38,368 nt of DNA from a virus (lineage: Duplodnaviria > Caudoviricetes). This document shows, piece after piece, positions 19,623 to 35,418 of this stretch. Under the pieces are notes generated by a model. That model saw only the letters and a program-made list of their open reading frames with translations, had not been told where the DNA came from and ran no database searches. A program made the translations under genes and the position numbers. The stretch lies in IMG/VR virus record IMGVR_UViG_3300032324_000298, positions 1 to 38,368 of that record, one strand, 5' to 3'. Within the stretch, counting starts at the first letter, position 1. The number at the start of each line of letters is the position of its first letter.

Positions 19623-21980
19623 ATGTCCGGCATTTTTGACCAAATTATCAACTATTCCCCCCCGCTAATTGTTAGCGGAACGGTCAATTATGACGGGACG
19701 TGGGATGCTTCTACAAACACTCCAACCTTAAACAACCCGCCTGCGGCTTCTACTAAAGGCGACTATTACGTTGTTAGCACGGCTGGCACGCAGTTTAGCA
19801 TTACGTTTGCAGTGGGCGACTGGATTATCAGCAACGGCACGGCTTGGGAAAAGGTGGATTTGACGGACGCTGTTTCTAGCGTGTTCGGGCGCACAGGCGC
19901 GGTGGTTGGTGTAAGCACCGACTATTCCGCTGTTGGCCTTACAAACACGGCCATTGGGGCTTCTAGCCCATCTACGGGTGCTTTCACCACGGTTAGTGCT
20001 TCCACCCCAATTGCAGTGGCTTCTGGCGGCACGGGTGTCACGACCTCGACGGGCACGACCAACGTAGTGCTCAGCAACAGCCCAACCCTCGTCACGCCAA
20101 TCCTCGGCACGCCTCAGAGCGGGACGCTGACGAGCTGCACGGGTCTGCCCATTAGCACGGGCGTGTCTGGTCTCGGGACAGGCATCGCAACTTTCTTAGC
20201 CACGCCATCATCGGCAAATCTTGCATCAGCGGTGACCGATGAAACCGGCAGTGGATCGCTAGTTTTTGCAACCAGCCCTACGCTAGTCACGCCCAACATC
20301 GGCGTAGCTACAGGGACATCGCTGGCGGCGGCTTTGAACGGCAGTCTGGGAGCCACGACGCCGAGCACGGTGGCGGCGACGACCGGTTTCTTTTCCAGCA
20401 CTCTGTTTGGGGGCGGAGTCACGACCTTGCGCGGTGCGTCTGTGCCAATTGCAAACAACTCCGGATTTCTTATCGTGGGGTCGAGCGATGCAGCCGCCGC
20501 AGACCTCGGAGGTTCACTTGGGTTTACCGCCAACACGACAAGCCTCTCGAATTACCCGATGGGCAACATTTCGGCGCGGCTCATTGCGACCGGCGCGGGA
20601 GTTTATCGAAGCTACATGGCTTTTGCCACGACTGACACGGTTGGAAGTATCGCCGAAAGGATGCGGCTAACTGACACCGGCCTAAACTCCACGGCCATCG
20701 GAGCCACGACGCCGAGCACGGGCGCGTTTACGACGTTGAGCGCGACGGGAGCGTTTAGTTTCAACGCAAACGGCACGTCCACCGTGGGTCCAACTACCGG
20801 CAGCACAATTTTGCGACTGCGCGGAGGAAACACAGCAACAGCTGATGGCTGTTCATTTTTTGTCGATAATGGCGGGACTGTCGTTGCGGCTTACGGCAAC
20901 AAAGCGAACATTTTGGGCGGCGCATACAACGCGACCGCCATGCTCTACAATCTCAATAATCTTGAGGTAACGGCAGGCGGAACTAGCACGGTTGCCACCT
21001 TCTCCTCCACCGGCCTCGCCGTGACGGGGGCGTTGAGCAGCACGGGAATCCTGAGCGGTCCCGGCTTTCGGGCTTCAAAAGTAACGGCGTCAAGCGGGTT
21101 AGTAAAAATCCAAGACGAGGGCGCGAATGTTTACAACGTGATCGGGTCGCGGAACAATGCGGACTCGGCGGCACTTCCTCTTGTGTTTCAGGGATCAAAC
21201 TTTGATTTTGCTGGAGCAGTCGCCGTGACCGGGGCGTTGTCGAGCACCACAGGAGCCAACTTTGCGACAAGCAGCGGTTTCGTAGGCTTTGGCCGAACTA
21301 ACCCGATTTGCGTAATCGACGGAAAGGTTGCAGCTAGTGCATCAAACGTGTTGGCCTTCCAAGTTTCAAACGACACGAATACTAATTTAGAGGTTCTTCT
21401 AAAAAATAACGTAACCACCATCAACGCGGGTGGAACCGGCACGCTTGTTTTTGCAACGGAATCAAGTGTTACCGAACGCGCTCGGATTACTTCCGCCGGA
21501 CTTGCAGTGACCGGCCAAATTGGAAACTTTTTTACCGGCGCAAATGGCCAGTATGCTCAAAGTCAAGACAACACGAGCGGCGCAAACTTTCATGTGTTTT
21601 ACAACAGCGCCTCAGTGGCGTGCGGCTCCATCTCTCGCGTCACGACGACCAACGCAGTTGTTTTCAACACCACTTCCGACGGTCGCCTTAAAGAAAACTT
21701 CCGCGACTTTACGGATTCTGGCCGCCTAATCGACAGCCTCAAACCTCGCGTGTTCGACTGGAAGAACAGCGACGAGAACGGCAAAAACGTCGTTGGGTTT
21801 GTTGCTCAAGAACAACACGCCGCCGACCCAATTTTTGCCCACATCGGAGCGGTGAGCGTAGGCGACGACGACCCAGACACCATCACGAAACAGTGGCAGC
21901 GCAGCGACTCGGCACTCATTCCAATTTTGGTTGCCGAACTCAAGTCCCTCCGCGCCCGCGTTGCGGCTTTAGAATCTTAA
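19623..21980 (+). CDS. Tail fibre with C-terminal peptidase S74 intramolecular chaperone
   Basis: G/T/S-rich repeats; TSDGRLKEN...LKPRVFDWK...GFVAQE...LIPILVAELKSLRARVAALE. Confidence 0.9.
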   Translation: MSGIFDQIINYSPPLIVSGTVNYDGTWDASTNTPTLNNPPAASTKGDYYVVSTAGTQFSITFAVGDWIISNGTAWEKVDLTDAVSSVFGRTGAVVGVSTDYSAVGLTNTAIGASSPSTGAFTTVSASTPIAVASGGTGVTTSTGTTNVVLSNSPTLVTPILGTPQSGTLTSCTGLPISTGVSGLGTGIATFLATPSSANLASAVTDETGSGSLVFATSPTLVTPNIGVATGTSLAAALNGSLGATTPSTVAATTGFFSSTLFGGGVTTLRGASVPIANNSGFLIVGSSDAAAADLGGSLGFTANTTSLSNYPMGNISARLIATGAGVYRSYMAFATTDTVGSIAERMRLTDTGLNSTAIGATTPSTGAFTTLSATGAFSFNANGTSTVGPTTGSTILRLRGGNTATADGCSFFVDNGGTVVAAYGNKANILGGAYNATAMLYNLNNLEVTAGGTSTVATFSSTGLAVTGALSSTGILSGPGFRASKVTASSGLVKIQDEGANVYNVIGSRNNADSAALPLVFQGSNFDFAGAVAVTGALSSTTGANFATSSGFVGFGRTNPICVIDGKVAASASNVLAFQVSNDTNTNLEVLLKNNVTTINAGGTGTLVFATESSVTERARITSAGLAVTGQIGNFFTGANGQYAQSQDNTSGANFHVFYNSASVACGSISRVTTTNAVVFNTTSDGRLKENFRDFTDSGRLIDSLKPRVFDWKNSDENGKNVVGFVAQEQHAADPIFAHIGAVSVGDDDPDTITKQWQRSDSALIPILVAELKSLRARVAALES

Positions 21981-27559: not shown

Positions 27560-30500
27560 ATGCCTTACGACCCAGAGACAGGAGAGTATATCCCCGATAT
27601 GGGGCCAAGTTCGTCCAATGTTCCAAAATCCAATTCTTTTGGTTTTGACCCCGGCCAATCTACTCGTGACTATCTTGCAGGCGTAGCTAATCCAGAGACG
27701 CTTTCAGCCCTCCTTGGAGCCGAAGCTGCGGCACGTCCTCAGTTGGGTGCTCAGGGACTTAGAGACCTTAGCCAATTTCAGTCAGGCACACCACAATTTA
27801 ATGTTCAGGCGTTTCTTGCTGCTCGCCCCGACATCCTCAATAATTTCAACAATGCTAAGGATGACTATTCCAGAATGTATGGAGGTCTTGAGCAATATGC
27901 TAAGGCTGCTGCTGACGCCGAAGGGCTTACACCTCAGTTTACAACTACCCAAGGTGGTAGCCTCGATCTTCTAAAACAAGCTGCTGGCGTTACGAGTGGC
28001 GTAGAGACGGCGGCAAATACCGCCCTACGAACAGCGGGAGCGGCAGATGTTGCTGCTTTAGCTCCTCAACTTGCTGCCACCTACAATCAACTAAACCCAG
28101 AGATTCAAGCGAGCTTACAACGCGCTGAAGGTTTGAGTCGAGTTCCTGATGCCTACGCCCCAATGCGGACGGCGGCTTTTAACGCTCAACAATTTGGTGA
28201 TCTTCAGTTCAATCCAGCCCAAGCCTCCCTGTTGGGTAGTGCTCCGCAAGTAGATTTAGGTGGATACAATGCCGCACAAGTTGGTGCTCAGAGTTACAAT
28301 CCCACACAGGCTTCTGCACAAGGTTATAACGCGGCCCTAGCGCAGTCTCAGGGTTACAATGCCCAACAAGCCTCGGCTCAAGGATACAACGCTGCTCTAG
28401 CCCAATCCCAAGGCTACAATGCCGCATTAGCTCAATCCCAAGGCTACAACGCTGCTTTAGCTCAATCCCAAGGCTATAACGCCCAACAAGCACAGTCTCA
28501 GGGTTACAATGCTGCTCTAGCCCAATCACAGGGCTATAACGCTCAACAAGCACAGTCGCAAGGCTACAATGCCGCTCTAGCTCAATCGCAAGGTTATGAC
28601 GCTGCACAGGCCCAATCACGAGGCTATGACGCTGCTCTAGCTCAATCACGCGGCTACGATGCCGCACAGGCTCAATCGCAAGGCTATCAATCTCAAGGTT
28701 ATACCCCACAAGGCTATCAAGCCGCTCAGGCTGGTGCTGGTATGCAGACGGAGGCCGAGCGTTTGGCCCGTGGTCAACTTGGTCAATCACTCTATGCTCA
28801 GGCTTTGCAAGCTGGACCTAGCCAAGCCGCTCAGCTCCTTGGTAGCCGTGCGGCAGAATTTGCCGCTAGCACAGGTCAGCTTTCCCCTGAAGAACTGAGA
28901 AACATTCAGCAAGGCGCCCGCGAAGCCTATGCTGCTCGTGGTATTGAGATGAGTAATCCAGCCATTGCTGCTGAGGCTGCTGCACGATCCGGAGCAATGC
29001 GTCAACGTCAGGCTGAAGACTTGGCCCAAGCTGCTGCTCTCAATCAGGCTTATACCCAAGACCTTTCCGCCAATCGTCAATTCGGCACAGGACTCTATGG
29101 GCAGGAAATTGGATTGCAGCAAGCCAACCAACAGGCCGCGCTTCAGGCTGCTCTTGCCAACCAACAGACGGGTCAAAACTTGTCTTTGGCCAACCTTCAA
29201 GCTACTAACCAAGCTGGTCAATTTACCGCTGGTTTGGGTGCTGAGGCTGCTCAGTTTGGGGCTAATGCAGCCAATCAAGCTGGTCAGTTCAGTGCTACTG
29301 CTGCAAATCAGGCTGCGTTACAGAATGCTCAGTTAGCTTCTCAGGCTGGTCAGTTTGGAGCTAGTGCATTTAATCAAGCCGCAATTCAAAACGCTCAGAA
29401 TCTCTCTCAAGCTAACCAATTTGGAGCCGGTGCCTTTAATCAGGCTGCAATAGAAAACGCTCAACTAGCTTCTCAAGCTGGTCAATTTAGAGCGTCTGCA
29501 GCTAATCAGGCCGCATTGCAGAATGCCCAAAACATCTCTCAAGCTAACCAATTTGGAGCTAGTGCGTTTAATCAGGCTGCAATTCAAAACGCTTTGCTTG
29601 GCTCTCAAGCTGGCCAGTTTGGTGCATCTTCAGCCAATCAAGCTGCATTGCAGAATGCTCAGAACATTTCTCTGGCCAACCAGTTTGGAGCTAGTGCGTT
29701 TAATCAGGCTCAGTTGCAAAACGCCTTGCTCGGCTCTCAGGCCAACCAGTTTGGTGCATCATCCGCAAATCAAGCTGCTTTACAAAACGCTCAAAACATT
29801 TCTCTGGCCAACCAATTCGAGGCATTATCCGCCAACCAAGCTGCAATCCAGAACGCTCAGAACATCTCCCAAGCCAACCAATTCGGGGCATTATCCGCCA
29901 ACCAAACAGCTATACAAAATGCTCAGAACATCTCCCAAGCTAATCAGTTTGGAGCTGGCGCACTAAACCAAGCTGCTTTGCAAAATGCGCTACTTGGCTC
30001 GCAGGCTGGGCAATTTGGCGCATCTGCCTTCAATCAGGCTCAATTACAGAACGCTCAGAACATCACTGGAGCCAATCAATTTGGTGCTGGGGCTCAAAAT
30101 CAAGTATCCCTTGCCAATCAAGCGGCGTTTAATCAGGCTGGTCAATTCGGGGCTGGAGCCCAGAACCAAGCCAATCTTGCCAACCAAGCTGCGCTCAATC
30201 AAGCAGGTATGTTCCGAGCTGAGGCTGGCAATCAAAGCCAGCTTACAAATGCTCAGCTGCAAGCTCAGTATGCTATGGCCAATCAGGGCGCGGCCAATCA
30301 GTTCTCCCTAGCCAATCAAGCTGCGGGCATGGATGTTAATGCTCAGAACCGTTTGTTTGCCGCCAATCAGCAACAGCAGAACATCTCCAACCTTGGTCTA
30401 ATTGGACAGGCTGACTCGGCCACCGCTGAAGCTAACAGGGCTTATGCCCTCAACTTGGCTCAAGGCTATCGTGGCGCGGCGTATGACCCAACGGCTATGC

Positions 30501-31186
30501 TACTAGGTCAACAGAGCAATGCCGGTCAAACCGCTGCTCAACAGCAAGGGTATGCTCTGGACTTGGCTAAGACGTTTAACACCCCAACAACCTACAATCC
30601 AGACACGGGTATTAACTTGGCGTTGGCCAATCAGGCTAACATCACCAACCGGGACATTGCCCAGCAGTCCGCTGCTGCTCAATTGGCGGCTGCTAAGGCT
30701 GGTGCTTCTGCTACAAAAACTGCTGGTGTTGCGGGCGGTGCTGGCAACATTATTGGCGGTGTGCTTGCCGGTAAAATCTTTTTGGCTTGTATCCCAGAAG
30801 GCGAACTCATTGACACACCAGAAGGCCAAGTGGCCATCGAAGACATCCGTTCCGGTGATAGCGTCATTGGCTTCTCTGGTGAACCAGTTAAGGTGCTCAT
30901 TAAACATGAGTATGCCGAGAACCCAGAAGCCGAACGCTTCCATCGTTTCTATCTCGATAATGGCAAGGACTTCTCTGTATGCGATATGCACCGCATTGAA
31001 GGCGAACGCTCGATGGACTACAATGTGGGGAATAGCTTTAAGGGCGGCGAAGTCATTGAAGCCATCGCTGTCTATGGCGGCGTCAGCCGTTCCTATGACT
31101 TGTTGACGGAAGACATAGGCTATCGTATGTCTGGCGTAGCTGTTAACAGCATGATTGAAGAACTTGCCGCCTTCTCATCCACCTAA
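27560..31186 (+). CDS. Repeat-rich internal virion/DNA-ejection protein with C-terminal Hint domain
   Basis: 10-aa and 22-aa tandem repeats, a Gly-rich hydrophobic segment, then CIPEGELIDTPEG...CDMH...YDL...GVAVN|S. Confidence 0.8.
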   Translation: MPYDPETGEYIPDMGPSSSNVPKSNSFGFDPGQSTRDYLAGVANPETLSALLGAEAAARPQLGAQGLRDLSQFQSGTPQFNVQAFLAARPDILNNFNNAKDDYSRMYGGLEQYAKAAADAEGLTPQFTTTQGGSLDLLKQAAGVTSGVETAANTALRTAGAADVAALAPQLAATYNQLNPEIQASLQRAEGLSRVPDAYAPMRTAAFNAQQFGDLQFNPAQASLLGSAPQVDLGGYNAAQVGAQSYNPTQASAQGYNAALAQSQGYNAQQASAQGYNAALAQSQGYNAALAQSQGYNAALAQSQGYNAQQAQSQGYNAALAQSQGYNAQQAQSQGYNAALAQSQGYDAAQAQSRGYDAALAQSRGYDAAQAQSQGYQSQGYTPQGYQAAQAGAGMQTEAERLARGQLGQSLYAQALQAGPSQAAQLLGSRAAEFAASTGQLSPEELRNIQQGAREAYAARGIEMSNPAIAAEAAARSGAMRQRQAEDLAQAAALNQAYTQDLSANRQFGTGLYGQEIGLQQANQQAALQAALANQQTGQNLSLANLQATNQAGQFTAGLGAEAAQFGANAANQAGQFSATAANQAALQNAQLASQAGQFGASAFNQAAIQNAQNLSQANQFGAGAFNQAAIENAQLASQAGQFRASAANQAALQNAQNISQANQFGASAFNQAAIQNALLGSQAGQFGASSANQAALQNAQNISLANQFGASAFNQAQLQNALLGSQANQFGASSANQAALQNAQNISLANQFEALSANQAAIQNAQNISQANQFGALSANQTAIQNAQNISQANQFGAGALNQAALQNALLGSQAGQFGASAFNQAQLQNAQNITGANQFGAGAQNQVSLANQAAFNQAGQFGAGAQNQANLANQAALNQAGMFRAEAGNQSQLTNAQLQAQYAMANQGAANQFSLANQAAGMDVNAQNRLFAANQQQQNISNLGLIGQADSATAEANRAYALNLAQGYRGAAYDPTAMLLGQQSNAGQTAAQQQGYALDLAKTFNTPTTYNPDTGINLALANQANITNRDIAQQSAAAQLAAAKAGASATKTAGVAGGAGNIIGGVLAGKIFLACIPEGELIDTPEGQVAIEDIRSGDSVIGFSGEPVKVLIKHEYAENPEAERFHRFYLDNGKDFSVCDMHRIEGERSMDYNVGNSFKGGEVIEAIAVYGGVSRSYDLLTEDIGYRMSGVAVNSMIEELAAFSST
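28262..28681 (+). repeat. 14 x 30-bp coding tandem repeat (GY[ND]AxxAQS[QR])
   Basis: Counted in the translation; synonymous divergence between copies. Confidence 0.9.
29285..30274 (+). repeat. About 15 x 66-bp coding tandem repeat (QFGAxAxNQAAxQNAQxxSQA[NG])
   Basis: QF (MF in the last unit) recurs every 22 codons. Confidence 0.9.
30788..31147 (+). other. Hint (intein-like) domain, 120 aa
   Basis: Cys1, block B CDMH, block F SYDL, terminal Asn followed by Ser. Confidence 0.8.
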
Positions 31187-31201
31187 ACTTTCTTAAACAC
31201 A

Positions 31202-32512
31202 ATGATTGGAAGCTCCGTAAATCCCGCCCTAGGTCGCATTGACTACTCCCCCATCACACGGGGGGCTGAATCTGCTGCACAAAGCATACAAGCTGGTGGT
31301 CAAGCCTATGGGAATATGTTCGCCAATCTTGGCCAACAAATCGGTAGTGGCATCCAGCAATATCAACAGAATAAGCAAAAGCGCGATTTCCTTGAGGCAC
31401 AGGTAAGAAGCAACATCGGTGAAGCAATTCAGTCGCTGAATAAATTTAAGGCCAATTCTTCGGCTTACGGCGGCCAAGCTCCCATTCGCCCTGAAGCATT
31501 TGAGAATATTTCTCTTGGGGAACTTCCTAGGATGCCTATTGGTAAACTAGAAGCACTTGTTACCCAGACAGAAAAACTGCTGCAAAAACCACGGGCAATC
31601 GAGAGCTTCATCCAACAGCAAGCCCTGACGGATGCCGCAAATCAGCAGCGTAATGCAAGAATTGCCGCTGCAATGACGCCGCCACAGGCTAATGCTCCAT
31701 TCTATCTGGGACGGCCAATGCAGCCAGACACGCCAGAAGCACTAACTAAACGAGTGGTTGAAGCCGGTGGTTCAATACAAGAGGCTCTTGCCGCTGCAAG
31801 GGCTCCTTCTGAGATTCGTGAGACTGAAGCAAAAACAATGGCTTTGGGCTCTAAACAACCGGCATTGCCATCCTATCAGCAGCAACGCCTAAACACTGAG
31901 GTTGCGGCCTTCAAAGCAAGGACGGGTTCTAACCCAACGCCAGATCAAATGGTTGCTATTTACAACCGAATTGACGAAGGAACTCAGCCCAACCCATACG
32001 CTGCAAAGGTGGCTGAAACCCTATTCAATCAATACACCTCTGCTCAAGGTGCTCTTCAAAGACTTGAAAGCATTAACGATCAAATCGCAATGCTTGATAA
32101 AGGAAATGTTAATGTTGGTTTCATGGGGGAAATCAAAACTGGAATTGATAAACTTACAGCAGCTTTTGGGAATAAAGATGCTGCTGAAAGAGTTACAAAC
32201 ACTGAAATTCTTGAAAGCGTCCTTGGTCTTGATTTAATGTCTGCGATTACAGCAGCCGGTTTGACAACGAGAAGTTTCGATACACCGGCTGAAATGAAAA
32301 ACCTTCGCGCTGCTTTTGTTGGTGGAACAACACTAAGCCCAGAAGCGATTAAGACTATTGCTAAATTTCGTCGCGGAGTTCTTCAAACAGTTGTCAACGA
32401 TTACAACCAGAAGGTTGATAAGGGAGTCTATAATCGTTTAAGTGAGGCTTTTGGCCAGCCAGTTAATAAAATTAAACTACCCACCGTAATTAACTCCATA
32501 ACACCGCGCTAA
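31202..32512 (+). CDS. Putative DNA-ejection/internal virion protein
   Basis: Gly/Gln-rich helical N-terminus; position after the tail genes. Confidence 0.65.
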   Translation: MIGSSVNPALGRIDYSPITRGAESAAQSIQAGGQAYGNMFANLGQQIGSGIQQYQQNKQKRDFLEAQVRSNIGEAIQSLNKFKANSSAYGGQAPIRPEAFENISLGELPRMPIGKLEALVTQTEKLLQKPRAIESFIQQQALTDAANQQRNARIAAAMTPPQANAPFYLGRPMQPDTPEALTKRVVEAGGSIQEALAAARAPSEIRETEAKTMALGSKQPALPSYQQQRLNTEVAAFKARTGSNPTPDQMVAIYNRIDEGTQPNPYAAKVAETLFNQYTSAQGALQRLESINDQIAMLDKGNVNVGFMGEIKTGIDKLTAAFGNKDAAERVTNTEILESVLGLDLMSAITAAGLTTRSFDTPAEMKNLRAAFVGGTTLSPEAIKTIAKFRRGVLQTVVNDYNQKVDKGVYNRLSEAFGQPVNKIKLPTVINSITPR

Positions 32513-35418
32513 TGCCAACCTACACCAAGAAAATTGACGGAAGAGAATATACGGTTGATGCTGAAAGCGAGCCATCCGAGGCTGAGATCAGAGCATTTAT
32601 CGCTAGGCAATCAGCTCCCGCATCTGCTGTTGATTCAGCTCCCACTTCCGCGCCTGCTCCCGTAGCTGCTCAATCACAGGCAAATCAATATGCTCCCATG
32701 ATGGCGGCAGCGGCTCGCGCTGGTGGCATGGGTGGATTGGGTATGTCTGCTCCAATTCAGCCCGAGTATGGCCCCAACATTGTTCGTTATGGTGTTCCGG
32801 TTGCGGCGGGGCTTGCTACTGGTGGCGCGGGTTTCATCCCCACCGTTGGAACCGGGCTAGTATCTTCTTTCTTATCTGAAGCGGGTGCTCAAGGAATGGA
32901 AAAAATGCAGGGAACTCGCTCGGAATACTCACCACGAGAAATGGGGACGGCGGGTGCTATGGGTATGGCTGCACCAACTAGGCTTGCACCAAGGATGTTG
33001 CCCGCTGTTTCCAACTTCTTAGCAAGCTCCGCTGTTAATGTTGGCTCATCCGAGTTGGGTAGATTTATTCAGGAAGGAGAGGTAAAGAAGCCTTCTTCTG
33101 TTGAAGAATCAATAGTTCGCTTTGGTCTTCCTGTTGGATTAGCATCGTTTTCAAGTTTTACAGGAGGCAAGAACGCTAAGGCGCAAACAGCCAAAATGGG
33201 TCGTGATGATTTGATTTTAAGTCGTGGCGGTGGAAGTGTTATGCTTTCCGAGATTCTTCCCGACTATACCGGCCTTGAAGCCAAAGTAATCCGCGATGGT
33301 AATGAGTTTGCTATTAAGGCTCTGAATAACCTAGACGTGGAAATTGGGCCTATGTTGGCCAAGACGTATGAGGGAGCTAAGGATAGTGCCGAAATTGCCG
33401 GAAAGCTATCACCTCACGTTGGACAGCTAACCAGTTTGCAAGCCTTGGCTCGGACCTCTAGGGATGAGGCTATAAGGCTTGAAAGACAAGCCGCTGAAGC
33501 CATTGCTTCACAACGGGCAGATGCTTTGAAGTTAAGGGCGGATGCCAAGGATGCCGCAATGACCGCCGCTAAGGACAAGTATGTTTACGATCAGGGATTG
33601 GAACGCATTTTTGGCGGCGTATCGCAGAGGATTGGCACAGTGGTCAATGGGGCCAGCATGGACAATTTGCGTTCAATTGCTAGGGCTTCCAAAGACTCTA
33701 TTGAGGCAGGTTTGGACAGGGCCTATGCCAATCTCAATATTGGGTTGAATGACCCGGTTGTTTCCGTTGGGGATATTGTTAAGAGCGCAACCAAGGCTTC
33801 AGCCAAGGGACTTGGGCTTGAGGGCGATATTGCCAAAACTGAATTTGTAAACGCTCTTGGAGCAAGTCTCAAAACATTAGACCCAACGGGAAGCGGAGTC
33901 ATCTCGCTGGAGGGCTATCGCAAGTTTAGGGATTCGTTTGTCCGAGAACTAACAGAAGTAACAAAAGACCCCAATTATGCCAATAGGGTGGCTTCTAGCA
34001 GCTATGGCATCATAAAGGAAGCTGCGGATTCCTATATCGCTAAGAACATTCCAGCTAAGTCAGAGATTTGGAAACTCACCAATGCTCAGGCGGCGGCTGT
34101 GTATGGCGCAAAGAAAAGCAATGTAATTGAACTTCTCGCGGAGGGAGACATGAATGGTGTTCTTTCTTTGATGAAGAAAGAGGGGACGGTTGCTCCAATT
34201 CTGAATGAGGTTAATGCCTACGCGGATGCAATTACTGGATTGGGAGGGAGTAAGTCTCTGAATGCAGCCAATCGCTTCAAGAAAGACTTCTTGGGCGCAA
34301 TACGCGATACACTGGTCGAGGATAGTCTTAATTTCGGCAAGGGGCAGGATAGTGCGGCCAAAATCGTTGATTTTCCAAAGCTAATCACCACGTTGGATGA
34401 ACTGAGACAGCGTAAGTTTCCGGTTGAATTGCTAGATTTGGGTAGTGCCAAAGACATTAGACAACTTGCCCGCGTAGCTTCTGCTGGTGGAGAAGGAGGA
34501 ATGACCTCCGATCAATTCAGCAAATACATCCAAAATAGAAAGAATTTTGGAGAAGGGGCTGCTGCTGCTCGCACCGCTTATGATAGAGCCTATAAAGACT
34601 TCCTGATCTCCAATGATGTGAAGAATCGGGCTAATGCGGCTGCTCGTATGAGCAAAGAAGCCAAGGCTGCTAATTTCAAAGCTGGAGAAATTGAGGAAGC
34701 TCAAATTCTGGCCAAACAAGACCCCGTTGTTGCTCTTCTTGGCAACATGAACATGGGTTTGAGCAAGGACGCATCTCAGAATGGACGATGGGTTGCTAGC
34801 TTGTTCTCAATGAGCCCATCTGTTGTTGGCCAATTTGTTGATGCTTTACAAACAAGTGGGCGAACCAATGTTCTTGAAGACCTTAAAAAGTCAGCAATGG
34901 CTACGGTTATGCGGGATACGTTCTCAAAGACGGATGATGTCGCAATGAAACGTATTAACAGCAAGAACGCCCTCAACTTCTTCCAAGGTGAAAATGGTGC
35001 GGCACGGCGCGATATATTAAAAACACTAATGGGCAAGGAAGAGTATGCTAACTTTGAGAAAAACTTCTCTAAGCCCCTTGAGCGTATTGTTAACACAAGA
35101 GAGCTTCTTGGTGATAAATATTCTGATTTTGGTGATTTGGTAAGACCAGCAGTATCAGCCAAGGGGCTTCTTGAATCACGGGCCACTGGTGCTACTCTTT
35201 TCAAGACCGCATTCGACAATGTTAAAAAACTTGTTGATGAGCAGCGTTACAACACGATTTACGCTCTCTACGTCAACCCATCCACGGCTAATGCCTATGC
35301 TGCGGCGGCGTATGATGCTGATAAGTTCATTAAAAGTTCTGCTGCAAACTCTTTTGCCCTTAAACTGGCAATGGAAGAGGACAATCGAAACCTCAATCGG
35401 CAGGCTCCATCACGCTAA
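32512..35418 (+). CDS. Putative large DNA-ejection/internal virion protein
   Basis: 968 aa, Ala-rich helical with a Gly-rich hydrophobic stretch (GVPVAAGLATGGAGFIPTVGTG); last gene of the arm. Confidence 0.65.
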   Translation: MPTYTKKIDGREYTVDAESEPSEAEIRAFIARQSAPASAVDSAPTSAPAPVAAQSQANQYAPMMAAAARAGGMGGLGMSAPIQPEYGPNIVRYGVPVAAGLATGGAGFIPTVGTGLVSSFLSEAGAQGMEKMQGTRSEYSPREMGTAGAMGMAAPTRLAPRMLPAVSNFLASSAVNVGSSELGRFIQEGEVKKPSSVEESIVRFGLPVGLASFSSFTGGKNAKAQTAKMGRDDLILSRGGGSVMLSEILPDYTGLEAKVIRDGNEFAIKALNNLDVEIGPMLAKTYEGAKDSAEIAGKLSPHVGQLTSLQALARTSRDEAIRLERQAAEAIASQRADALKLRADAKDAAMTAAKDKYVYDQGLERIFGGVSQRIGTVVNGASMDNLRSIARASKDSIEAGLDRAYANLNIGLNDPVVSVGDIVKSATKASAKGLGLEGDIAKTEFVNALGASLKTLDPTGSGVISLEGYRKFRDSFVRELTEVTKDPNYANRVASSSYGIIKEAADSYIAKNIPAKSEIWKLTNAQAAAVYGAKKSNVIELLAEGDMNGVLSLMKKEGTVAPILNEVNAYADAITGLGGSKSLNAANRFKKDFLGAIRDTLVEDSLNFGKGQDSAAKIVDFPKLITTLDELRQRKFPVELLDLGSAKDIRQLARVASAGGEGGMTSDQFSKYIQNRKNFGEGAAAARTAYDRAYKDFLISNDVKNRANAAARMSKEAKAANFKAGEIEEAQILAKQDPVVALLGNMNMGLSKDASQNGRWVASLFSMSPSVVGQFVDALQTSGRTNVLEDLKKSAMATVMRDTFSKTDDVAMKRINSKNALNFFQGENGAARRDILKTLMGKEEYANFEKNFSKPLERIVNTRELLGDKYSDFGDLVRPAVSAKGLLESRATGATLFKTAFDNVKKLVDEQRYNTIYALYVNPSTANAYAAAAYDADKFIKSSAANSFALKLAMEEDNRNLNRQAPSR

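What the first reader, a model, noticed from the sequence alone, without database searches (positions are those of the whole stretch)
30700..31186. Hint autoprocessing domain capping a virion ejection protein directly after a membrane-like segment
Seen: the protein ends AGVAGGAGNIIGGVLAGKIFLA|C, then a 120-aa domain with Cys1, CDMH (in place of TxxH), YDL and VN|S, leaving a 12-aa tail SMIEELAAFSST. There is no homing endonuclease. Known: Hint domains (inteins, BILs, Hedgehog) form a thioester at Cys1 and then cleave, splice or transfer the N-fragment to a nucleophile. Inference: this is a domesticated maturation module rather than a selfish intein. It could expose the hydrophobic C-terminus, splice on the 12-mer, or ligate the protein to a lipid or partner during packaging or ejection.
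Basis: partly seen in the sequence, partly recalled or inferred. Interest (0 to 1): 0.85.

Follow-up and report, generated by a model that had tools for sequence, protein, structure and literature searches.

The report
Self-cutting cap replaces an ATP enzyme
A lake phage's likely DNA-injection protein ends in an intein-like cap that is predicted to cut itself off, and close relatives swap this cap for a neighbouring enzyme predicted to use ATP, which suggests that both chemically finish the protein's greasy tip, here likely by closing it into a small ring.

Summary
The Hint domain is real: AlphaFold pLDDT 87, Z 17 to Hedgehog and inteins, with Cys1, His68 and Asp104 invariant. Ser121 occupies the terminal-Asn slot, +1 is Met, and the '12-aa tail' is a conserved helix of the module, so splicing is unlikely. 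Uncapped homologs stop at the Cys1 position and carry no tail.

Two patterns point to acyl transfer rather than plain cleavage. First, Lys at -5 from Cys1 is kept in 90/90 close and 98/114 distant capped proteins, and in 0/30 uncapped ones. Second, among 42 related contigs, all 20 uncapped alleles are followed by a PP-loop ('PAPS reductase-like') gene, while none of 20 Hint-capped or 2 alleles with a second Cys-led cap has it. The window's complete genome lacks that gene.

Best reading (0.45): the Hint thioester is an ATP-free substitute for acyl-adenylation and is resolved by Lys-5 into a lactam or cross-link. Nothing is shown biochemically, and P22 gp7 has neither cap nor enzyme. This scan noted the Lys-5 idea and the PP-loop idea separately on other DNA; their swap within one lineage did not come up in my four look-ups.

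The parts
27560..31186 (+). First of three likely ejection proteins (1208 aa from ATG; the ORF opens at TTG 27494); A/Q/G/N-rich with repeats
   Evidence: gene order after capsid and tail genes; relatives hit PHROG 'DNA ejection protein' (2 of 105) and 'virion structural protein' (5 and 1 of 105)
28472..28690 (+). Decapeptide repeat stretch (PF25296, below cut-off); listed homologs vary from 673 to 1179 aa
30728..30787 (+). Gly-rich hydrophobic segment, the predicted mature C-terminus; variable among close alleles (19 different last 8-mers in 90 proteins)
30773..30775 (+). Lys at -5 from Cys1, candidate nucleophile or docking residue
   Evidence: 90/90 close, 98/114 distant, 79/79 bacterial, 0/30 uncapped; background 2.4%
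30788..31150 (+). Hint domain Cys1-Ser121: Cys1 30788, His68 30989, Asp104 31097, Asn120 31145 (penultimate slot), Ser121 31148 (terminal-Asn slot)
31151..31183 (+). Conserved C-terminal helix of the module (Met122 invariant, Glu125); not an extein
   Evidence: helix at model 153-161; pN/pS 0.089
31187..31201 (+). 15-base gap to the next gene; in uncapped relatives an 800-1300-base insert that begins with the PP-loop gene lies here
31202..32512 (+). Second likely ejection protein (436 aa); its start was used as a neutral anchor
   Evidence: function inferred from position only
32512..35418 (+). Third likely ejection protein (968 aa)
   Evidence: no family hit; function inferred from position only

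Best explanation
The protein ends in a non-splicing Hint domain that is predicted to turn the Ala-Cys1 peptide bond into a thioester and cut itself off, and the thioester is likely attacked by the lysine five residues upstream, which would close the hydrophobic tip of this likely ejection protein into a small lactam ring or cross-link neighbouring subunits. Shown: the fold, the catalytic residues, the missing splicing residues, the Lys-5 conservation, and the exclusive exchange of the cap with a PP-loop enzyme gene. Inferred from Hint chemistry: the N-S acyl shift and the cleavage. Inferred from the gene swap: that the purpose is to activate and cap the C-terminal carboxyl group, which uncapped relatives would do with ATP through an acyl-adenylate. 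Speculative: Lys-5 as the nucleophile, and removal of charge from the tip so that it inserts into the host outer membrane.
For: Fold and catalytic core: Z 17.2, rmsd 1.9 over 120 residues to Hedgehog 1at0; C1, H68 and D104 in 105/105. Uncapped alleles (30 of the 120 listed homologs) end at or within a few residues of the Cys1 position. Lys-5 is kept while its neighbours vary, and only when this Hint follows: 90/90, 98/114 and 79/79, against 0/30 uncapped and no enrichment before the second cap. Exclusion: 20 Hint without PP-loop, 20 uncapped with PP-loop, 2 second-cap without, of 42 contigs. The PP-loop family is absent from 20 of 20 Hint-bearing whole records (7 at least 90% complete) and present in 2 of 2 uncapped controls; no PF01507 gene lies in the window's complete genome. 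From the enzyme side, 0 of 80 PP-loop loci (21-31 lineages) hold this Hint, and 70 of 71 parsed have an uncapped hydrophobic-ended gene directly upstream. The enzyme keeps an invariant SxGKDS motif, shows an ECG-type motif in 1 of 117 members, and folds closest to the adenylyltransferases CysD and FAD synthase (Z 15.4, 15.3). Precedent: Tetrahymena BIL2 makes a Lys-epsilon/C-terminus isopeptide without ATP (PMC8616854, passages).
Against: No biochemistry. P22 gp7, of similar build by composition, ends uncapped and is followed directly by gene 20 with no enzyme gene, so the modification is not universal. 16 of 114 distant members lack Lys-5, and the 11 of these in alignment A1 with no Lys at -4 to -6 keep C1, H68 and D104. 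The second cap has no Lys-5, so the products cannot all be the same ring. The cassette moves by recombination as a block, so the 42 contigs are not independent; the 7-9 state changes on flank trees may reshuffle a few haplotypes. Type B BILs are described as cleaving without splicing (PMC4031507, passages). One PP-loop locus (L185) lacks the usual upstream gene.
Confidence: 0.45

Rival explanations
1. Plain self-cleavage. The cap shields or chaperones the hydrophobic tip until packaging and is released by hydrolysis. Lys-5 is a docking residue for an acidic pocket or pairs with the new carboxylate.
For: Uncapped alleles end at the cut site. P22 gp7 has neither device. B-type BILs cleave only. 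In the 11 members without Lys near -5, Glu4 is K/G in 11/11 and Glu44 is lost in 8/11, as for a salt bridge (not significant after tree correction).
Against: It does not explain why every uncapped allele of this lineage carries a PP-loop gene with an intact ATP motif and no capped allele does.
Confidence: 0.3
2. Hedgehog-like transfer to an outside nucleophile (ammonia, a polyamine, a lipid head group, a peptidoglycan amine or another virion protein). Lys-5 and the conserved C-terminal helix recognise it. The PP-loop enzyme and the second cap would make the same product.
For: The top structural match is Hedgehog 1at0, tied with inteins; block F Asp is invariant; a conserved helix follows the Hint. 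It gives one product for all three devices, two of which lack Lys-5. A SET-domain gene follows the PP-loop gene in some loci.
Against: The tail helix is about 11 residues, far shorter than a sterol-recognition region (recalled, about 60 aa). No candidate nucleophile was identified.
Confidence: 0.2
3. Protein splicing joins the 12-residue tail to the ejection protein (one of the first reader's options), or the domain is an ordinary selfish mini-intein.
For: The letters N-S occur near the end.
Against: Ser121 lies in the terminal-Asn slot and +1 is Met. Position 120 is not Asn in 31 of 105. None of 30 uncapped homologs has the tail. The tail is as conserved as the Hint.
Confidence: 0.04

Closest known systems
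Type B bacterial intein-like domains / Pfam Hint_2 (PF13403)
   Same: Hint fold, Cys1, no His-Asn end, expected N-terminal cleavage (PMC7765530 and PMC4031507, passages)
   Different: Scores 25 bits against a cut-off of 28.4, over residues 1-38 only; own motifs HEYxE, CDxH, V[ND][ST]M[IV]xE; conserved Lys-5; sits on phage virion-type proteins and Verrucomicrobia lipoproteins
Hedgehog Hog-Hint (PDB 1at0)
   Same: Z 17.2, rmsd 1.9; non-Asn residue in the terminal slot; conserved helix after the Hint; N-fragment predicted to leave as an activated acyl group
   Different: No full sterol-recognition region; 13% identity; phage and bacterial
Tetrahymena BIL2 (BUBL locus; PDB 6TMM, 6Y75)
   Same: A Hint that forms a Lys-epsilon/C-terminal isopeptide and replaces an ATP-dependent cascade (PMC8616854, passages); Z 15.0
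   Different: BIL2 keeps a terminal Asn (N143 in the PDB titles) and joins ubiquitin-like domains; here the proposed Lys lies in cis at -5
Peptidase S74 intramolecular chaperone caps (PF13884)
   Same: Self-cleaving C-terminal cap on virion proteins; one ends this phage's tail fibre at 19623-21980
   Different: Unrelated fold; not seen on this ejection protein in the loci examined
Phage 'PAPS reductase' of Bcep22-like phages (JC1 gp65)
   Same: A PF01507 gene directly after a virion protein (gp64, found in virions by MS) (PMC9144972, passages)
   Different: The paper reads it as a sulfur-metabolism moron; direct homology to the enzyme here was not found (one search hit only Bacillus phage genes at 23-26%)
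P22 gp7 / T7 gp14 first ejection proteins
   Same: First gene of a three-gene cluster; T7 gp14 inserts in the outer membrane (PMC8954989, passages); gp7 is Q/N/A-rich with a Gly-rich hydrophobic end
   Different: No sequence homology shown; about 230 aa against 1076; gp7 has no cap and no enzyme gene

Membership tests
Hint superfamily | Hint fold | tested here: met
   Z 17.2, rmsd 1.9, 120 aligned; ranks 1-29 are all Hint structures at Z 10.9 or more; Foldseek E 5e-6
Hint superfamily | Cys/Ser1, block B His, block F Asp | tested here: met
   C1, H68, D104 in 105 of 105
Hint superfamily | Autoprocessing activity | not testable with these tools
   needs expression
Intein (class 1) | Terminal Asn/Gln and +1 Cys/Ser/Thr | tested here: not met
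   terminal slot S91/T14, +1 Met in 105/105
Intein (class 1) | Intein-less alleles with joined exteins | tested here: not met
   0 of 30 uncapped homologs carry the tail
Type A BIL | C-terminal His-Asn | tested here: not met
   [ND]-[ST]-M
Type B BIL / PF13403 | Intein motifs except block G | tested here: met
   definition from PMC7765530
Type B BIL / PF13403 | Family profile score | tested here: not met
   25 bits against 28.4; seven further members scanned are also below the cut-off
Hedgehog Hog domain | Sterol-recognition region after the Hint | tested here: not met
   only 11 residues follow Ser121
Hedgehog Hog domain | Transfer of the N-fragment to a nucleophile | not testable with these tools
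   inferred only
gp14/gp7-type ejection protein | First of three internal-protein genes after the tail genes | tested here: met
   same position in the 15 of 17 distant loci that reach the next genes, read from ORF lists
gp14/gp7-type ejection protein | Sequence homology to a studied ejection protein | tested here: inconclusive
   no PHROG hit for this protein; 2 of 105 family members hit phrog_4287 'DNA ejection protein'
gp14/gp7-type ejection protein | Present in virions and ejected | not testable with these tools
   uncultured phage
PAPS reductase CysH (partner gene in relatives) | C-terminal ECGLH catalytic motif (recalled) | tested here: not met
   ECG-type match in 1 of 117; TIGR00434 24.7 bits against 165
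PP-loop ATP pyrophosphatase (partner gene in relatives) | SxGxDS motif and fold | tested here: met
   S29, G31, K32, D33, S34 invariant in 117; Z 15.4 to CysD 1zun

The most novel reading that the evidence does not exclude
Phage ejection proteins undergo an unrecognised C-terminal modification that can be installed by at least three interchangeable devices: a Hint cap that closes a Lys-5 lactam without ATP, an unrelated 64-residue Cys-led cap, and a PP-loop adenylating enzyme now annotated as the auxiliary metabolic gene 'PAPS reductase'. The same Hint would make self-cyclising lipopeptides in Verrucomicrobia and could serve as a one-domain side-chain-to-tail cyclase.
Probability: 0.4. Interest if true: 0.9.

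Novelty: new variant of a known kind. Interest (0 to 1): 0.76.

Why it matters
How ejection proteins enter the host envelope is an open question. This near-isogenic swap gives a direct test of whether their hydrophobic tip must be chemically capped. It also suggests that 'PAPS reductase' genes at this position mature virion proteins and do not feed sulfur metabolism. If Lys-5 is the nucleophile, the domain is a natural self-contained peptide cyclase. A cultured phage with the second cap (HMO-2011 gp25) and a cultured phage with a PAPS-reductase-like gene behind a virion protein (JC1 gp64/gp65) make parts of this testable now.

Tried and rejected
Splicing and the selfish-intein reading were rejected. 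A complex prediction of the PP-loop enzyme with ATP, Mg and the uncapped 40-residue tail gave no answer (0.29 against a mark of 0.32). Covariation of Lys-5 with Glu4 and Glu44 looked strong raw (p 4e-6 and 2e-5), but only 3 supported independent pairs exist (sign test p 0.5), so it is a lead only. No cultured phage with this Hint family was found. NCBIfam gave nothing for the Hint or the second cap, so a likeness of that cap to CFI-box-CTERM is only recalled; the Atlas gave unnamed clusters under 0.9. A sequence search of the PDB gave only E 0.27 to 2lwy. Weak hits of the full A1 profile in PP-loop loci came from extein columns and vanished with a Hint-only profile. Two RNA runs did not cover the Hint, which is uninformative. 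Eight paper searches listed no paper on Hint-capped ejection proteins or on this swap; subscription papers are missing from the library and no supplements were read. PMC10386132 (passages) held nothing on caps.

Full report
Setting. The window is a complete 38,368-base phage genome with direct terminal repeats. Holders of the stretch are mostly freshwater and lake metagenomes. It encodes a terminase, an SU10-type capsid protein, tail genes and then three large unannotated proteins of 1208, 436 and 968 aa, the layout of a podovirus ejection cluster (PMC8954989, passages). The finding is the end of the first protein. That it is an ejection protein is inferred: it has no PHROG hit itself, but of 105 family members 2 hit 'DNA ejection protein' and 5 and 1 hit two 'virion structural protein' families.

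The domain. Pfam sees only residues 1-38 (Hint_2, 25 bits, cut-off 28.4). AlphaFold on a 105-row alignment gives pLDDT 87, and block means of 93-98 over the Hint. The model matches Hedgehog 1at0 (Z 17.2, rmsd 1.9, 120 residues) and mini-inteins (Z 17.1-16.3), and ranks 1-29 are all Hint structures (Foldseek agrees). Cys1, His68, Asp104, Thr107 and Met122 are invariant in 105 of 105 rows. Among 17 distinct close alleles pN/pS is 0.075 for the Hint and 0.089 for the tail. An independent contig spans the junction.

The C-terminal junction is misread by one residue. The aligned ranges end with model residue 151 (Ser121) on residue 440 of Mtu RecA, 198 of Mxe GyrA, 454 of 1dq3 and 537 of 2cw8. These are the inteins' terminal Asn by my recall, and only range ends are given. 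Position 120 varies (N74, D21, A4, Q4, E2), 121 is S91/T14, and 122 is always Met. Class 1 splicing needs a terminal Asn and a +1 Cys/Ser/Thr (PMC4031507, passages), so it is unlikely here. The tail is a conserved helix of the module.

Natural alleles. Of 155 homologs found with the last 309 residues, 120 were listed: 90 carry the Hint and 30 stop at the hydrophobic segment with no tail. A third form carries an unrelated Cys-led cap of about 64 aa (CxVAREVYG). It is common in viral contigs (121 loci returned, about 850 estimated) and present in cultured HMO-2011 gp25.

Lys-5. The last eight residues before Cys1 come in 19 variants among the 90 close proteins, yet all 90 have Lys at -5; none of the 30 uncapped proteins has Lys five from its end. 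Of the 150 representatives listed, 125 had a placeable start and 122 a Cys there; I dropped 7 as other Hint types. Lys-5 is present in 98 of the 114 remaining with five upstream residues, against 2.4% background. The family also forms stand-alone lipoproteins, mostly in Verrucomicrobia (80 loci kept of 108): 79 of 79 parsed have Lys-5, and 48 have 22 residues from the last upstream Cys to Cys1. Lys-5 is not enriched before the second cap.

The swap. In uncapped loci the stop codon overlaps or abuts the start of a gene of about 270 aa with PF01507 above cut-off. I used loci found with cap-neutral anchors, removed duplicates by contig, left out three that were truncated or lacked the extein, and counted the window. 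Of 42 contigs, 20 have the Hint and no PP-loop gene, 20 have no cap and the gene, and 2 have the second cap and no gene. Whole-record search finds the enzyme in 0 of 20 Hint-bearing records (7 at least 90% complete) and 2 of 2 uncapped controls. The window's genome has none. From the enzyme's side, the best 80 of 190 loci (21-31 lineages) hold no Hint of this family. In 70 of 71 parsed loci the upstream gene ends in an uncapped Gly/Ala-rich hydrophobic stretch, ending Phe or Leu in 66 of 70; of 9 more, 6 look the same and 3 were unresolved. None of 121 second-cap loci holds the enzyme or the Hint within at most 2 kb, and flanks were fetched for 80 only. The cap state changes 9 and 8 times on trees of the two flanks, which shows exchange by recombination. 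It also means the close contigs are not independent tests; the distant lineages carry more weight.

The enzyme. It keeps SxGKDS, GxKxxDxD and Cys123/225/228 in all 117 members and Cys239 in 116, and shows an ECG-type motif in 1. It folds closest to CysD and FAD synthase (Z 15.4, 15.3), then APS/PAPS reductases (13.9-11.5), then GMP synthase and LarE (about 10). From established knowledge (recalled), many PP-loop enzymes adenylate a carboxyl group before amidation or thiolation, for example Dph6, lasso cyclases and LarE. The literature reads a similarly placed JC1 gene as sulfur metabolism (PMC9144972, passages).

Mechanism. A thioester and an acyl-adenylate activate the same carboxyl group. 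The simplest account of the swap is that the tip needs capping and the Hint does so without ATP, as Tetrahymena BIL2 replaces an ATP-dependent cascade and forms a Lys isopeptide (PMC8616854, passages). I give 0.65 to acyl transfer of some kind: 0.45 by Lys-5 (an i to i+4 lactam or an inter-subunit link) and 0.2 to an outside nucleophile. Plain hydrolysis gets 0.3. Against: P22 gp7 is uncapped with no enzyme gene; 11 aligned members lack Lys near -5 but keep the catalytic residues; the second cap has no Lys-5; and no activity has been measured.

Novelty. The domain works like a type B BIL or Hedgehog Hint but fails the membership tests for inteins, type A BILs, Hog domains and the Hint_2 cut-off; it is a distinct Hint subfamily (161 clusters at 50% identity). 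Eight paper searches listed no description of it; no supplements were read. Earlier notes of this scan raised Hint-capped ejection proteins, Lys-5 and PP-loop enzymes tracking protein ends on other genomes. I had seen the Lys-5 and PP-loop patterns before reading those notes. Look-ups for the combined swap found no note holding all the words. Verdict: a real feature, a new variant of a known kind, interest 0.76.

Noticed in passing
L033:6499-6705; L210-L330; L412:4102-6222: A second, unnamed Cys-led cap of about 64 aa (CWVAREVYG...W..FR.W) at the same junction; about 850 viral stretches; on HMO-2011 gp25; three tandem genes carry it in L222
   Followed up: partly
L331-L410: Stand-alone lipoproteins, mostly in Verrucomicrobia: signal peptide, lipobox-like Cys, 14-40 residues (mostly 22, 18 or 26), Lys-5, the same Hint
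   Followed up: partly
L184:4315-4683: A SET-domain gene follows the PP-loop gene here, and similar genes follow it in several other loci
   Followed up: partly
P0115: An uncapped close homolog ends in Gly-Gly rather than a hydrophobic residue; its gene context was not seen
   Followed up: no
L077, L078, L081-L083, L086: A 138-160 aa gene that reads like a GNAT precedes the Hint-capped gene in these distant loci (by eye, not scanned); the window has none there
   Followed up: no
window 19623-21980: The tail fibre ends in a Peptidase S74 cap, a second self-cleaving cap in this genome
   Followed up: no
window 28400-30250: Decapeptide and 16-residue Q/A/N/G repeats; listed homologs range from 673 to 1179 aa, which may tune the reach across the envelope
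   Followed up: no
L185: The one parsed PP-loop locus without an uncapped hydrophobic gene directly upstream
   Followed up: no
P0147, P0168, P0191, P0209, P0214-P0216, P0218, P0220, P0221, P0225: Members without Lys near -5 all lose Glu4 and mostly Glu44; too few independent events to test
   Followed up: partly
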